From Styela clava (lineage: Eukaryota), in NCBI RefSeq assembly GCF_964204865.1, contig NC_135250.1, positions 5,580,001-5,644,000 on the forward strand: a DNA stretch of 64,000 bases, given 5' to 3'. Every line of letters begins with the position of its first letter. Positions within the stretch are counted from its first letter, which is position 1. The position numbers are program-made. Positions 18,001 to 30,000 of this stretch are shown piece by piece.

Positions 18001-21000
18001 TGTGTGAAATGAAATTCTTAAGTTAATAATACCATTCCTATTATCGGGGTTGGGTAGAAATTCCTGAACCCAAAGTCTCGAGTCAAATCGAATCACAGTT
18101 AGGATAGGATTTACATATTTATCCTGAGGGAGAATAATCCAGCAATCTTCCGGCACATGACCATCCCCTAGGATAACCATAACCAAGGGATTTGAACTTG
18201 CCAACCTACTTAGGGTAATCAGAGGTGCGGTAGCGAGCATATTGCTAACGCTTAACACAATGCGCCACACCGCGGAGTCACTGTTCATCAGTCAGATGAA
18301 GCTAGAATTTGTCAAGTCTCGTGACCCACCTCAAAAATAACTAACATCAGATAGCAAAGAGCTACGAAATAGTAAGGCGAAAGTATGTTTAATTCAAAAA
18401 ACTTCTTGAAAATACTTGGATGGAACGTAAATAATGAATTAAATGAAAAGTTTGAAGTTGGGCTTATGGCCAACTTCAGCATAATTAATACCAAGATAAT
18501 CTAGCCCTAGCAAGCTAGTGAAGATTCTGCTATTTCTCACTCATGGGGTTTTCCAAATTAGGTTGAAGCTAAAGCAAACTAAAGTGAACTAAACAAAGTT
18601 TGTTTAGTTGAGTAATGTTATGTTATATAGTTTTCACAAATGTTATTACTAAATTCAGTAGATTTCGAATAAGTTATTTGCTTGAACAAAAAATATTCAT
18701 GAAAAATATCGAAAATCACTAATAATCCAGTATTATACACACAAATTCTATAGTGTAGTAATTGAAATTCTATAGTAATTAAAAATATCAAATACCTGAA
18801 TTGTAGCTTGTTTAATTCTGATTTTTGCGATAAAATTTCTCTTTATGAGAGTGACAGTTTGCCGCCATATTGTTACTTCAGGCGGCATGATAATTATATT
18901 ACGGTATATTAAGAAACCTAAAATTAAATATATGTGACAAAATACAGAAATAAAATATATATAGTGACTGTTAACGACAAAACGATCGTGACGCAGACAT
19001 GAAAAAGATATTGATAAAATATTGATTTCTGTGATTGATAACTTCCTAAACTAATAGATAGGGTTGGATTTTCAAATTTATGTCAGGGAAAAGGAAAGTC
19101 AGTATGACAGCTTAATCATATGGCGAACCACAGCCCGTCATCCCGTTAGTAGCCCATGCTGGGTATGAGAATTGTATCCAGATATTTGTTATCTATAATT
19201 TTTGTGTGCCAGTATTCTATTGTCATGTTCCTCTGTACTAGATTTGTTATGTTATGATTTGGAGCCAACCTGATCATTCAAGAAAAAAAACTCAACATAT
19301 TCATATTCGGAAAAATCTGATTCAAAATTTTTTAAATTAGAGATTCGATTTGAAAATATAATATGCAGAAGTTAGTTATTCAAAGATTTGTTCTCTCCAG
19401 ATCCTGTAAGCCATATATATACATATATTTTATCAAATACTGGTCGTCAAAATAAACTAATATTTACCATACCAGTATACCATACTTTTTTGGAATTTAT
19501 GGGTTGCTCGCTAGCTACAGAGCTAGATCACCTGGCGGAATCAATGGACCTTTCCCCGAGCATCGACTTCTTTGTTTACTTCGTGACATTAGCCAATTAG
19601 CAAGATGCAAAAAGTGACGTAACAATGCTCCCTTTTCGCATCCGCTCAGACACTTTTCTCACTCAGACAGATTTTCAAGCGTGGTCGTAAACATTACCTC
19701 GTTTTCGCGTTTTTGAACTCTATTCGTTAGTTTTCAGTTGTGTTTCGGAAACTTAAATATAAATCAGATAATTCAATGATTACTCTGTCTTCCTAGGAGT
19801 TTTAATTTAATTGCAGTAATAAAAAATTAGTGTAGAAATAGCTGTGATAAACTAGGCTAAAATTCTTTACCGGTACTTTCAATAAACAGATTGTTGTATG
19901 CGATGATTCATAATGATGGTTTAAAACACATACCCCATTTTACAGGCGCCAACTCGCAAAAGCACTCTTAAAATAGCGCCGAAAATTTTGCAATGGTAAA
20001 GTATAGGAGGAATTTTTCGGGGGTCAAAGGTCGGGGAAAGGTCCATAGCTCAACTGGTAATAACTGTTTAAATGCCCTGCAGCGTTGCTACTTTTTGAAT
20101 GAAGAAGTTTTGAATCGTTCTCCTATTTTATTCTTTTGCTTTAATCACGGTACGGGTACCGGTACTTTTCATTCATAGCCACAAACAAAACATCTGTAGT
20201 CACATGCTGTGTACAAATATGCGAATCCCGTGCTTGGCTGCAATTCTGTAAAATTACCATGCGAGTTATAAATTTTTTTGCTCGTCAATGACTTTGTTTC
20301 CTTATTATCTCACTCCACATCCCCACACTTTTCTCATTGTGTTTCTTTTTGTAAATCGCTCACTCGTTGTTTTCCTCAAGTCATGTGCTCACGGAACACG
20401 TGAGCTGCGTAAACACACATTTATTTTCTCCTTTCGGAACAATTGTTTGTTTTTTTCTCCTCATATTGTCGCTGAACGTTGTTCAATCATTTTTAGTTGA
20501 GGAATGAGAATGTCAGCGCTCTGAAAATGACAGCTGTAGCTTCATAAAGAACACAAGCTCGAGCTAAATACCACTAGACTTAGGTCAAACTATCAAAATA
20601 TTTAAAAAAAAATAAGGAAATATAGCATCACGCGTCTTATTAGACCTTAGTCATACAAAAACCCGCCGCCCATGAAAAAACATAAAGTGGCATAAACAAA
20701 CATTTTCGATGCTAGGTCTCGCGGGGAAAGTGGTCACAGGTGATGGGATGTCAATATTTAATTGTCCAATCTTATCCCGAGGCATAGATGTTTAAAAAGA
20801 CAACTGCCAACGTTCAGCTTACTTGAACAAATAACGAATATTGGGTACTCCCGAAGTATGCGCACCAGGATGTCGCACATCCTGAATCCTAACCTGGTAC
20901 AAAACCTAAGTTCAGGTTGTGCGCCATCTTGGTGCGCATACTTCAGGAGGTCCGAATATTGTTGTTTCTGTATAATACCTATTTATATACCGTATATGCT

Positions 21001-27000: not shown

Positions 27001-30000
27001 TGTGCCGAGAAGGTAAAGTTTTAAATATGCAAATCTCGACTTGATCAATGATGAAAAATGCTTAAATATTGGAACAAGTGACACAGACATAAAACGTCGA
27101 CTATATCCGGCATTGCGTTGAAGTGTAATTTATTAATATGAAAATTTCGAAAGTCACTCGACGCATTCACGGGATATTTCATTTATAACTATTGGGTTTT
27201 TCTATTTATTTTTTACCTCAAATCACAATTAGAAAGACATAATACATCCGCTATTTGCGCTGTTGGATTGAAATGTAGATGAAAGAATTTAAAATTCAAT
27301 TTAAAATAACCAGACGACGCACTTGCATGATGTAATGATTTAATTTTTTGAGTTTCACCCCTGTTAAGCAAGTTGAGATAACATTTTAGCTTAATTGCCA
27401 TATATCTACCATTTAGGTTAATGAAGCCAATTAGGGCGTATTGTATTATTATATAAACACGTCATTCCCAATTCCAAATTAACAATATTTTGTTTTTATC
27501 ATTTATAGATAGCCCAGTAGCGTTTGCGTATTCTTCCTACAACGGTATCTCAGCTGAAACTACGACAAAAATTTACAATGCAATGATTGAACACGACGAT
27601 ACACCGGTGCCGTTATATTTCTCCCAGTGCCCTTTGATGGAGAATATTGAAGATTATTTGAAGTAATTTGTCAACAATTACGACTGTGATTCTGGACAGT
27701 TTCATTTGCTGTTTCATTAGCGGATCGGAACGCCTTGTTGATATGGTACCATGATGTAAATGTTGTGTTGTAAATGTATACACAGAGAATTGAAATGAAA
27801 CTTTGTTAAAGGAGAGTGAATATATTTAATGACACGCATATTCAAGAGAATAAAATTATCCAGCATTTGCCATGAATTCATTGGGTATTCGCTGATTCAG
27901 TATTTGAATTCACTTACATACCCACAACGTTTTTGCAGTCTACGTAACTAGCCTTTAATTATATTTCGTGACCATCGAGATAATAAACAGTGAACTGCAA
28001 ACAATAAGCACAAAGATAGGACAGTTCCGGAACCGTAATACAGCACGGTAACTGTCTCGTAAAAGCGGGGCTTGCACTCACTGGTATAAATAATGTCTTC
28101 TAATGCGGGGACTTCTTTTGGAATCGGTAAACTGTGCCTTGTTGGGTAAGTCACCGCATTGTAGCTATGTAAGTAGTATATGATGTTGTCCAGAATTGGT
28201 AAATTACTCCACAATACTCCACAATACTCCACAATGCTCTTACTCCACATTACTCCACATCCACATTGCTCTACATGGACAGGACATGTCCACTTTTTCG
28301 GTAAGGTATTAGAGTATTCGCGTAGAGGGTCAGGGGTGTTTCTCTCTCTCTCGATAAGACTTTGACATGAGAATTGGGAGAGAGAAAAATCGCGCTATTG
28401 TTTAATTTTCGCCCTTTAATTGATAAGACTTCGTCAAACTGGGGAGAGAGAAAAATCGCGTTATTGTTTTAACGGGGTGGAATCGCTTGTCGCGTTATTG
28501 TTGTTTTTGTTTAAACGGTGGTGGAATCGCTTGTATAATCGATAAGACTTCGGCGAACTGGGGAAAGAGAAAAATCGCGTTATTACTTTATGGGGGTGTA
28601 ATTAACCGTATTTTCGCTCTCTTGATCGATAAGACCTCAGCGTGATGAAGTGAGTTACCGTGAATAATTAGATAATAAAACTGCGTGAGAAGATCTGCGC
28701 AATCGTTTTGTTTAAATGGAATAGTGTCTTATTATAAACGAAGAAAGAGTTTGTTGAAACTTGATCAAGGCGAGAAAAACATCATGATTGCTTGACCATG
28801 ATAAACTGTTTACTTTGAAATATTCTGACGCTTATGAAGAAAATATCAGCAATGTTTGTAAATGAATCTGCGCCATCGTTTTCTTTTAATGGCTTGTGCC
28901 GTAAACAACAAGACTTGCTGTGTAGCGCTGTTACACTGTTTGTTTTTATAAAGAATGTAAAAGAGAGAAAAATTATTTACAGAAAAATCTAGCTATTTTT
29001 ACGATTAAACAAAATCGGAAATATATCACTCCGTGAATTTACAGGGAAATTAACTAAACAGTGGTGACACAGTAAAATGAAACGAAACCTTAAACAAAGG
29101 AATAAAAAATGAAATGCGAGTGGGATTGCTGAAATTTTGACGATGAATTTTATCCGGTTATTTGTTAACGTATGCTTTTTTACTAAATATCTCGTTAAAT
29201 ATGATGAAATAGATTCAGCGTGACAAGTAAAACCCCCATCTGGTGCTTATTTTATTGGAATATTGTTGCGATTATGAATGAAAAGTCGGTTAGGTTTTTA
29301 AGGTTTGCAGCTTTAATAACAAAACTAACGCAGTATCCACCATTTCGTGTAGTATCAGACCACATAATTTATTTTATACCACTGGTCGTACTATGCGGGG
29401 CGGCTTTGTAGTTTTAACATATTGAGACTGTTGTGTGAAAGGTTCCTCAGAAATGAAGTAAATGTTTTATGCTTTGGCGTGCGATTAATTTTAATGAGTG
29501 AAGTAGAAAAGTTTAAATGTTAGTTGAACTGCGGTAATTCTTGCGATGGTATCTAATTATACATCATAAAAATTCAGCATGCGTCAATTTATTAGCGTGT
29601 GCATATTTATTAACAAATCTTCAAATGTGGCAAATATTGAATGCTCAGTAATGAACTAATAAAATTATTTTGTTAATACTTCTGACATTTGATACATTGG
29701 TATAAATTTTATGTAAAGATAAAATGTTGATTAAGCAGTTGGAACGATTCTTTTTTTGCTTGGATTTTGTTTAGTCGACCAGAATGAAAGTTGTATTCCC
29801 CGTAACTGATTTGCTGAAAATTGACAGAGCTGTTTCTATTTTAGTATTTTATTATGATAGAATTAATTTGGCCCCGTATTACACTCGGCAGAGATGTAGC
29901 TACGTAATATGCATATGAGTGTAACCATGTTACGATACTAAAATACCGCTATGGCCATGATAAAAATTACAGAGATTCTGTTTTTATTTATGAAACATGT

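What the first reader, a model, noticed from the sequence alone, without database searches (positions are those of the whole stretch)
18796..27666. Hidden secreted lipocalin gene head-to-head with an ABCA5-like lipid exporter
Seen: a clean 6-exon, 211-aa ORF that the ORF track does not recover, with signal peptide, G-T-T-W-Y and TDYETY motifs; its ATG is 5.75 kb from the divergently oriented ABCA ATG. Known: ABCA transporters export lipids to extracellular acceptors (ABCA1 to apoA-I), and lipocalins such as ApoD are secreted hydrophobic-ligand carriers. Inference: this could be a co-regulated exporter plus acceptor module, with the lipocalin as the lipid acceptor. Adjacency alone is weak evidence.
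Basis: partly seen in the sequence, partly recalled or inferred. Interest (0 to 1): 0.65.

Follow-up and report, generated by a model that had tools for sequence, protein, structure and literature searches.

The report
Divergent sea-squirt lipocalin beside ABCA5-like genes
A real six-exon gene of the sea squirt Styela clava encodes a secreted, very diverged lipocalin that standard domain searches miss; it lies between two copies of an ABCA5-like transporter gene, and nothing found here ties the two together functionally.

Summary
The window is Styela clava (a tunicate), not human. The six exons (24639-27666, +) are all GT-AG, have intron phases 0,2,1,1,1 and give 211 aa. A search with exon 2 alone returned an NCBI record, 'uncharacterized protein LOC144425899', that is identical to the model. 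So the gene is hidden only from an ORF track, not from RefSeq. The ABCA5-like start codon is at 18888 (-), 5,751 bp from the lipocalin ATG.

The lipocalin call is supported, but only indirectly. Pfam finds nothing in the exons or in the full protein. The protein belongs to a small family (16 representatives, at least 4 S. clava paralogs). The family profile hits only lipocalins in the PDB at E<=0.01 (17 of 17: crustacyanin, bilin-binding protein, ApoD). The family keeps GxWY, TDYxxY and four cysteines; the three that the PDB alignments cover align with lipocalin cysteines. The gene's exon count and intron phases match those published for chordate lipocalins. Differences from typical lipocalins are an extra segment of about 25 residues (exon 4) and no SCR3 arginine in this protein.

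The exporter-acceptor module idea has no support here. The gap is 5.75 kb and carries transposon-like elements, the ABCA gene is tandemly duplicated around the lipocalin, and the paralogs lie on other contigs. Synteny and co-expression could not be tested.

The parts
1..18888 (-). ABCA5-like gene, copy A, 5' part (residues 1-915 of the 1713-aa NCBI protein); the rest lies left of the window
   Evidence: tblastn of P0024: 898 of 915 residues covered, no stop codon.
18796..18888 (-). First coding exon of ABCA5-like copy A (31 codons, ATG at 18888)
   Evidence: 100% match to residues 1-31 of P0024. The donor GT follows 18796.
19544..20046 (.). Transposon-like element with 24-nt terminal inverted repeats, in the intergenic gap
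20837..20960 (.). 124-bp MITE with 50-nt terminal inverted repeats; an internally deleted relative of the intron-1 copy
21236..22664 (.). 1.4-kb element bounded by 20-nt inverted repeats; no Pfam domain in its ORFs
24639..24752 (+). Lipocalin exon 1: start codon, signal-peptide-like segment, first conserved Cys (C25)
24915..25149 (.). MITE in lipocalin intron 1 (64-nt inverted arms)
25572..25705 (+). Lipocalin exon 2: GTTWY (SCR1) and conserved C60
25993..26069 (+). Lipocalin exon 3
26534..26605 (+). Lipocalin exon 4 (72 nt, phase 1 to 1): most of the family-specific insert of about 25 residues before the TDY motif
26932..27012 (+). Lipocalin exon 5: TDYETY (SCR2) and conserved C157
27509..27666 (+). 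Lipocalin exon 6: region aligned to lipocalin SCR3 (Arg replaced by Ser), conserved C200, stop codon
27849..27987 (+). Two AATAAA/ATTAAA signals, at 27849 and 27982, which are 183 and 316 nt after the stop codon
37032..64000 (-). ABCA5-like gene, copy B (residues 105-1713 mapped; its first exons lie right of the window)

Best explanation
The locus is an intact six-exon gene of Styela clava, already in RefSeq as 'uncharacterized protein LOC144425899'. It encodes a secreted, acidic protein of about 21.6 kDa that is a highly diverged lipocalin of the ApoD / bilin-binding-protein / crustacyanin type. After signal-peptide cleavage near residues 20-24, two disulfides are expected on the ApoD pattern: C25 with C157, and C60 with C200. 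These would brace an eight-stranded cup that holds a small hydrophobic ligand in body fluid or tunic. The ligand is unknown; the closest solved relatives bind carotenoids, bilins, steroids or fatty acids. The protein belongs to a small family with at least four S. clava paralogs. That family carries about 25 extra residues before the TDY motif, encoded here by exon 4. The window protein and its closest paralog have also lost the SCR3 arginine. Its place next to ABCA5-like is most simply explained by lying between two tandem copies of that transporter gene, not by a functional pairing. Shown here: gene structure, identity to the RefSeq model, family membership, and profile-level homology of the family to lipocalins. 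Inferred: fold, secretion, disulfide pairing, and ligand binding.
For: Gene model: with identity to the NCBI protein. Coding conservation: 46% identity to paralog P0023 across all exons. Family: 16 representatives at E<=1e-3. Family membership of the window protein: hhalign of P0007+P0023 against the other 14 gave probability 99.9%, E 4.2e-31, 200 columns. Family to lipocalins: the profile against the PDB gave 17 of 17 hits at E<=0.01 that are lipocalins, with and without the window protein, and 42 of 44 at E<=10. Best hits were crustacyanin A2 at 1.4e-6 and ApoD at 1e-5. hhalign against E. coli Blc gave probability 80%, E 1.4e-5, over 38 columns around the SCR3 region. W44, Y45, C60, Y148, C157 and C200 are invariant in 16 of 16 members. 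The N-terminal Cys, C60 and C157 align with cysteines of crustacyanin, ApoD or BBP. Six coding exons with phases 0,2,1,1,1 equal the pattern reported for an amphioxus lipocalin and for vertebrate ApoM and Ptgds (PMC3184775, passages). An N-terminal hydrophobic segment is present in 14 of 16 members.
Against: Pfam finds no lipocalin domain in any exon or in the full protein. Among 15 members, only 4 give weak PF00061 matches (best E 0.0025). Of five members checked singly, none reaches a curated cut-off. The window protein with its closest paralog alone gives 0 lipocalins among 9 PDB hits at E<=10 and 0.6% hhalign probability to Blc, so the link to lipocalins is transitive. The SCR3 arginine is absent. 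The insert of about 25 residues places TDY in exon 5, so the phase match may be partly coincidental. No 3D model, no transcript data and no signal-peptide predictor were available. An older RefSeq model of the same gene (P0008) goes out of frame in exon 4.
Confidence: 0.85

Rival explanations
1. One reading: the lipocalin and the divergent ABCA5-like gene form a co-regulated module. The transporter would export a lipid and the secreted lipocalin would accept it.
For: The two genes are head-to-head, with 5,751 bp between the ATGs. The concept has a precedent: the lipocalin apoM acts as an extracellular carrier of S1P, for which ABC exporters have been proposed, though this is unsettled (PMC5578026, passages). 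Abca5-deficient macrophages show less cholesterol efflux to HDL, and Abca5 is also found at the plasma membrane (PMC9044696, passages).
Against: The gap is far larger than classical bidirectional promoters (under about 1 kb, recalled). It holds three elements with terminal inverted repeats. A TATA-like motif and AG acceptor sites lie within 80 nt of the lipocalin ATG, which suggests the gene has its own promoter or a trans-splice site. The ABCA gene is a tandem duplicate, and the lipocalin is tail-to-tail with the other copy, 9.4 kb away. The three other named S. clava paralogs are on contigs of different length. With 17,428 genes in 340 Mb (PMC7540406), neighbours a few kb apart are ordinary. 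Mammalian ABCA5 is mainly lysosomal or late-endosomal. Searches for 'ABCA5' with 'lipocalin' listed no paper on such a pair by title (10 of 16 listed).
Confidence: 0.06
2. It is not a lipocalin. It would be a lineage-specific secreted protein whose GxWY and TDY motifs are chance look-alikes, or a degenerate relative of Arf-like GTPases.
For: No Pfam hit. The single-sequence PDB search gave only ARL6 (E 0.0023, residues 72-123) and no lipocalin. The profile of P0007+P0023 gave no lipocalin hit. No structure model was obtained.
Against: The ARL6 match disappears as soon as the closest paralog is added. It is absent for P0023 alone and for the family profiles. The family profile hits only lipocalins at E<=0.01, with matches at both the N-terminal Cys/GxW block and the TDY/SCR3 block. 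Single members P0010 and P0015 have ApoD as their best PDB hit (E 0.011 and 0.019). The cysteine positions and the exon/phase pattern also fit.
Confidence: 0.07
3. The gene is a decaying or non-functional duplicate rather than a working gene.
For: The RefSeq model P0008 from another S. clava record is 120 of 125 residues identical and then runs out of frame within exon 4. The SCR3 arginine is lost. A MITE sits in intron 1.
Against: In the window the reading frame is open through all six exons and the splice sites are canonical. The conserved W, Y and three cysteines are kept. Paralog P0023 shares the Ser-for-Arg change and is conserved along its full length, so the change is old and tolerated. 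The five amino-acid differences from P0008 are within the range expected from the 1.72% heterozygosity reported for the species (PMC7540406). The frameshift could be an allele, a second copy or an assembly error.
Confidence: 0.07

Closest known systems
Apolipoprotein D and its relatives among the lipocalins (bilin-binding protein, insecticyanin, crustacyanin, sandercyanin, Per a 4)
   Same: These are the best PDB matches of the family profile. Shared features are an N-terminal Cys a few residues after the signal peptide, GxWY, TDYxxY followed by a Cys, a size near 190 residues after cleavage, and a secretory leader. ApoD is regarded as the ancestral chordate lipocalin (PMC8420045, section 10).
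   Different: About 25 extra residues lie between the GxW and TDY motifs. The W-to-TDY spacing is 98-104 in 15 of 16 members and 76 in one. The window protein has no SCR3 arginine. No member checked against Pfam's curated cut-offs reaches one. Ligand and structure are unknown.
Chordate lipocalin genes with six coding exons and intron phases 0,2,1,1,1 (amphioxus Ambp/ApoM/Ptgds/Rbp4-like gene; vertebrate ApoM and Ptgds)
   Same: The number of coding exons and the order of phases are identical (against PMC3184775, passages).
   Different: Positional homology of the introns was not tested. Here TDY lies in exon 5, and exon 4 coincides with the family insert. From recall, in mammalian lipocalin genes TDY lies in the fourth coding exon, so the match may be partly coincidental.
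The single lipocalin reported for the tunicate Ciona (LCN_Cint)
   Same: It is a tunicate lipocalin that was used as an outgroup for chordate lipocalins (PMC8420045, passages).
   Different: That survey found one lipocalin in Ciona by PSI-BLAST from human queries. The family here has at least four paralogs in S. clava, all named 'uncharacterized'. Whether LCN_Cint belongs to this family could not be checked, because its sequence is in a supplement that was closed.
apoM with lipid exporters (lipocalin as extracellular acceptor of S1P)
   Same: It is the nearest precedent for a lipocalin that takes up a lipid handed out by a membrane transporter (PMC5578026).
   Different: The genes are not linked, the exporter's identity is unsettled, and nothing here shows any such relation for this pair.

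Membership tests
Lipocalin family (calycin superfamily) | Eight-stranded antiparallel beta-barrel flanked by a C-terminal alpha-helix (definition as in PMC2813246) | not testable with these tools
The one accepted job was interrupted, so no Foldseek search was possible. A hydrophobic-periodicity heuristic was uninformative.
Lipocalin family (calycin superfamily) | SCR1: the G-x-W motif at the first strand | tested here: met
   The window protein has G41-T-T-W44-Y45. W and Y are invariant in 16 of 16 members. The motif aligns with GRWY or GKWW of crustacyanin, ApoD and BBP.
Lipocalin family (calycin superfamily) | SCR2: the T-D-Y motif | tested here: met
   The window protein has T146-D-Y-E-T-Y151. 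It aligns with TDYETY of crustacyanin and TDYENY of ApoD.
Lipocalin family (calycin superfamily) | SCR3: a conserved Arg after the penultimate strand | tested here: not met
   The family consensus is W...R.P.PSA. The window protein and P0023 have Ser at that position, while the other members keep the Arg. By the kernel/outlier scheme (PMC2813246), two of three SCRs is the outlier class, which still counts as lipocalin.
Lipocalin family (calycin superfamily) | Significant sequence or profile match to known lipocalins | tested here: inconclusive
   Direct tests failed: Pfam gave none, and P0007+P0023 against the PDB gave 0 lipocalins among 9 hits. The transitive route succeeded: A4 against A5 at E 4.2e-31, and A5 against the PDB with 17 of 17 lipocalins at E<=0.01.
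Lipocalin family (calycin superfamily) | Small secreted protein (about 160-200 residues when mature) with a signal peptide | tested here: inconclusive
   An N-terminal hydrophobic segment is present and there is no other hydrophobic stretch. The mature protein would be about 187-189 aa, 21.6-21.8 kDa, pI about 4.6. No signal-peptide predictor and no experiment were available.
ApoD-type lipocalins | Two disulfides: N-terminal Cys to the Cys after TDY, and the strand-B Cys to a C-terminal Cys (pattern recalled) | tested here: inconclusive
   Four conserved Cys sit at the expected places. Three of them align with cysteines of crustacyanin, ApoD or BBP. The fourth lies outside the aligned stretches. 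Pairing cannot be shown without a structure.
Chordate lipocalin gene structure | Six coding exons with intron phases 0,2,1,1,1 | tested here: met
   against PMC3184775. Positional homology of each intron was not tested.
ABCA subfamily of ABC transporters (the neighbouring gene) | A full transporter with two ABC-2-type membrane domains, two nucleotide-binding domains and the ABCA C-terminal R1 domain, closest to ABCA proteins | tested here: met
   Pfam found ABC_tran in 2 stretches, ABC2_membrane_3 in 2 stretches, and R1_ABCA1. The best PDB hits are ABCA3, ABCA1, ABCA4 and ABCA7 at E 3e-198 to 4e-166, against 2e-39 for the best non-ABCA hit.
ABCA5-like group (ABCA5/6/8/9/10) | Groups with ABCA5 rather than with ABCA1/2/3/4/7/12/13 | not tested
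   Only NCBI's name, 'cholesterol transporter ABCA5-like', supports this. No ABCA5-group chain was among the hits shown in the PDB search, and no tree was built. The tandem head-to-tail arrangement resembles the human 17q24 cluster (PMC9044696).
Bidirectional-promoter gene pair | Divergent starts less than about 1 kb apart that share one promoter region (threshold recalled) | tested here: not met
   The ATGs are 5,751 bp apart, with three inverted-repeat elements between them. The transcription start sites are unknown.
Arf-like small GTPases | P-loop, switch regions and an NKxD motif, with a match to the Arf family | tested here: not met
   Pfam gave no Arf match at E<=10. The ARL6 match (E 0.0023, 52 residues) is not shared by P0023 or by any profile.

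The most novel reading that the evidence does not exclude
The divergent lipocalin and the ABCA5-like transporter would be a conserved, co-expressed pair in ascidians, duplicated together as one unit of about 48 kb. In this reading, a lipocalin family that surveys have overlooked would serve as the extracellular acceptor for lipid exported by ABCA5-like pumps. Its extra segment encoded by exon 4 would be the docking element.
Probability: 0.05. Interest if true: 0.7.

Novelty: new member of a known kind. Interest (0 to 1): 0.3.

Why it matters
A published survey of chordate lipocalins detected a single lipocalin in the tunicate Ciona (PMC8420045). Here a family with at least four Styela clava paralogs is labelled 'uncharacterized' and carries no Pfam domain, yet it turns out to be lipocalin-like at profile level. 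That would modestly enlarge the known lipocalin repertoire at the base of the vertebrate lineage. It would also give annotators a profile for naming these genes. The insert of about 25 residues that coincides with one symmetric exon is a small but clean case for studying how a conserved barrel tolerates an added segment. The exporter-acceptor idea would be of wider interest, but nothing found here supports it.

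Tried and rejected
- **Structure prediction and Foldseek.** Each retry came only after twenty other calls, as the message asked. The one accepted job (polled at 68-85) was interrupted, so there was no model and no fold search.
- **The listing of cluster members.** It was switched off, so the origin of the unnamed relatives P0009-P0019 and P0021 is unknown.
- **ESM Atlas.** It holds neither P0007 nor P0009.
- **The search for related loci.** With the family alignment it failed because no stretch was conserved enough. 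That collection holds only bacteria and archaea, so it could not test synteny anyway.
- **Pfam on single exons.** Only a sub-threshold Nodulin-like match on exon 6, judged noise.
- **NCBIfam on 16 members.** Nothing relevant.
- **ARL6 resemblance.** Rejected as chance.
- **Hydrophobic periodicity and helical-moment scan of exon 4.** Uninformative about secondary structure.
- **Bacterial promoter/terminator scan.** Not applicable to a eukaryote.
- **Rfam and tRNA scans.** Nothing found.
- **Pfam on flanking ORFs.** Ten ORFs in the flanks and intron 1 and the 148-aa ORF at 27948-28394 gave nothing.
- **Papers not held.** Sanchez et al. 2003 and Flower 1996 are not in the library, so their content is cited only through other papers or from recall.
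- **Complex prediction.** Not used. The report does not claim that the proteins bind, and adjacency alone is not reason enough.
- **Joined exon model.** The six exon translations were not joined into one sequence. Full-length analyses used the NCBI record found with exon 2.

Full report
**Source of the window.** A search with the exon-2 peptide and a search with one ABCA exon both returned NCBI proteins of Styela clava, the leathery sea squirt. The exon-2 match was 100% identical; the ABCA match was 92%, because that query was a stop-to-stop frame with intron flanks. Both proteins are recorded on a contig of 32,746,820 bp. The window has no N and is AT-rich. Nothing in it was taken for human.

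**The observation.**
- The exons are 24639-24752, 25572-25705, 25993-26069, 26534-26605, 26932-27012 and 27509-27666.
- All five introns are GT..AG, with phases 0,2,1,1,1. The product is 211 codons plus a stop.
- The exons lie in short stop-to-stop frames, the longest 82 aa. Those of exons 3 and 4 are under 50 aa, which explains why an ORF list misses the gene.

The exon-2 search returned NCBI 'uncharacterized protein LOC144425899 [Styela clava]'. Its 211 residues equal the six exon translations plus the three split codons, and it maps back to the six exons at 100%. All full-length analyses below used that database record. So the gene is not hidden from RefSeq; it is merely unnamed.

A second record, LOC120340069 (157 aa), matches 120 of the first 125 residues and then runs out of frame within exon 4. 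It could be an allele, a second copy or an assembly error.

**The neighbour.** 18888..18796 (-) encodes the first 31 residues of 'cholesterol transporter ABCA5-like isoform X3', 1713 aa. That protein has two ABC_tran and two ABC2_membrane_3 stretches and the ABCA1-type R1 domain. Its best solved relatives are ABCA3, ABCA1, ABCA4 and ABCA7, at E 3e-198 to 4e-166. The assignment to the ABCA5 group rests on NCBI's name only.

**What the protein is: direct tests.** Direct domain searches fail. Pfam gives nothing for the exons or for the whole protein. A single-sequence PDB search gives only a weak match to ARL6 (E 0.0023, residues 72-123).

**What the protein is: the family.** A full HMMER scan of 1.84 billion representatives found 16 proteins at E<=1e-3. 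These are the protein itself, the frameshifted record, and 14 relatives of 176-224 aa at 25-31% identity. A word-index search named three more S. clava paralogs, all 'uncharacterized' and on contigs of other lengths: LOC144429803 (46% identical), LOC120339929 and LOC144411842.

The alignments show these shared features:
- A hydrophobic leader in 14 of 16 members.
- A Cys followed by L-P, then G-x-W-Y, T-D-Y-x-N-Y, and W...R.P.PSA.
- Four conserved cysteines.
- W44, Y45, C60, Y148, C157 and C200 invariant in 16 of 16.

**Link from the family to lipocalins.**
- Profiles of the family hit only lipocalins in the PDB at E<=0.01: 17 of 17 with the window protein included.
- The same holds with the window protein and its closest paralog left out: 17 of 17, with ApoD at 2.4e-5.
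- At E<=10 the count is 42 of 44, led by crustacyanin A2 at 1.4e-6. Classing some of those chains as lipocalins rests on my own knowledge.
- The matches fall in two blocks, the N-terminal Cys/GxW block and the TDY-to-SCR3 block. Three of the four conserved cysteines align with cysteines of crustacyanin, ApoD or BBP.
- hhalign against E. coli Blc gives 80% probability over 38 columns around the SCR3 region.

**Limits of that link.** The window protein plus its closest paralog alone do not reach lipocalins: 0 of 9 PDB hits and 0.6% probability to Blc. Their membership in the family, however, is beyond doubt (hhalign 99.9%, E 4.2e-31, 200 columns). The link is therefore transitive. The ARL6 match vanishes once the paralog is added, and I treat it as chance.

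**Gene structure.** Six coding exons with phases 0,2,1,1,1 is the pattern reported for an amphioxus lipocalin gene and for vertebrate ApoM and Ptgds (PMC3184775, passages read). With commonly quoted phase frequencies (recalled, roughly 0.5/0.3/0.2), that exact series would arise by chance in about 0.3% of five-intron genes. This figure is an inference.

There is a caveat. The family has about 25 residues more than ApoD or crustacyanin between GxW and TDY. The spacing is 98-104 in 15 of 16 members and 76 in P0018. Profile positions 96-136 face chain positions 79-96 of crustacyanin. This surplus coincides with exon 4, which is 72 nt and symmetric in phase 1. TDY therefore lies in exon 5. If exon 4 is an added exon, the phase match is partly coincidental.

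**Departures from the typical lipocalin.** The window protein and LOC144429803 form a well-supported pair on a long branch (100/99). Both have Ser where the rest of the family and kernel lipocalins have the SCR3 arginine. Under the kernel/outlier scheme (PMC2813246, passage), two of three SCRs still counts as an outlier lipocalin. The mature protein would be about 187-189 aa, 21.6-21.8 kDa and pI about 4.6, with no N-x-S/T site.

**Fold not tested.** The fold itself could not be tested.

**Surroundings.**
- Window 29-16234 matches 48221-64000 at 93-99.5% identity. Both stretches map to the same ABCA5-like protein without stop codons inside exons.
- In 675 shared codons, 26 differ: 19 synonymous and 7 not. 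Both copies therefore look constrained.
- The lipocalin lies between these head-to-tail copies. It is head-to-head with copy A, and tail-to-tail with copy B at 9.4 kb. Copy B's last coding exon is 37133..37032.
- The 5.75-kb gap holds three elements with terminal inverted repeats: 19544-20046, 20837-20960 and 21236-22664.
- The middle element is an internally deleted relative of a MITE in lipocalin intron 1.
- No Rfam family, tRNA or Pfam domain was found in the flanks.
- The 9.4 kb downstream of the lipocalin is repeat-rich.
- A TATA-like motif and pyrimidine-AG sites lie within 80 nt upstream of the lipocalin ATG. Two poly(A) signals follow the stop codon.

**The module idea.** Nothing found here supports it. 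The gap is several times the size of classical bidirectional promoters (recalled threshold of about 1 kb) and is partly transposon-derived. S. clava has 17,428 genes in 340 Mb, and 46.7% of the genome is repeats (PMC7540406, passages), so a neighbour a few kb away is ordinary. The other named paralogs sit on other contigs. Mammalian ABCA5 is mainly lysosomal or late-endosomal, though it is also seen at the plasma membrane and linked to cholesterol efflux to HDL (PMC9044696 and PMC12220697, passages). A lipocalin acting as acceptor has a precedent in apoM and S1P, with the exporter unsettled (PMC5578026, passages).

Literature searches found no paper on such a pair or on these genes:
- 'ABCA5' with 'lipocalin': 16 papers, 10 listed.
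- The three LOC identifiers: 0 papers.
- 'lipocalin' with 'Styela clava': 1 unrelated paper.
- 'lipocalin' with 'tunicate': 18 papers, 15 listed.

Synteny and co-expression, the tests that matter, could not be run. Supplements that might bear on gene distances and on the Ciona lipocalin were closed.

**Verdict.** This is a real gene and very probably a diverged secreted lipocalin, one member of an unnamed family with at least four paralogs in this tunicate. A published survey reported only one lipocalin for Ciona (PMC8420045, passages and section 10). It is a new member of a known kind and of modest interest. The link to the transporter is adjacency only.

Noticed in passing
window 29-16234 and 48221-64000: The ABCA5-like gene is duplicated in tandem, head to tail, at 93-99.5% identity. 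The stretch 9888-16234 against 57653-64000 is 99.5% identical, which points to a recent duplication or gene conversion. In 675 shared codons, 19 changes are synonymous and 7 are not, so both copies look functional. The arrangement resembles the human ABCA5/6/8/9/10 head-to-tail cluster.
   Followed up: partly
window 20837-20960, 24915-25149, 32581-32605, 49687-49864: A MITE family with 50-64-nt terminal inverted repeats. There is a full copy in lipocalin intron 1, an internally deleted copy in the intergenic gap, a lone end at 32581, and a related copy in an intron of ABCA copy B.
   Followed up: partly
protein record P0008 (LOC120340069) against window exon 4, 26534-26605: An older RefSeq model of the same gene matches 120 of 125 residues and then reads out of frame from within exon 4. 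It could be an allele, an assembly error, or the copy expected beyond ABCA copy B.
   Followed up: partly
window 24563-24604: A TTTAAATAAATA motif and two pyrimidine-tract AG sites lie just upstream of the lipocalin ATG. In a tunicate these could be a core promoter or a spliced-leader trans-splice acceptor.
   Followed up: no
window 31974-32548 and 37779-38048; also 53236-53479: Tandem repeats of 203 bp (2.9 copies), 124 bp (2.2 copies) and 93 bp (2.6 copies). The first two lie in the repeat-rich 9.4 kb between the lipocalin and ABCA copy B.
   Followed up: no
residues 72-123 of the lipocalin (window exons 2-4): A 52-residue resemblance to the switch II region of ARL6 (E 0.0023 in a single-sequence PDB search). 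It is not shared by the closest paralog or by any family profile, and was judged to be chance.
   Followed up: yes
family member P0018 (no window coordinates): One of the 16 family members lacks the insert of about 25 residues and has the usual lipocalin W-to-TDY spacing of 76. Either its gene model skips the exon-4 equivalent, or the insert is dispensable.
   Followed up: no
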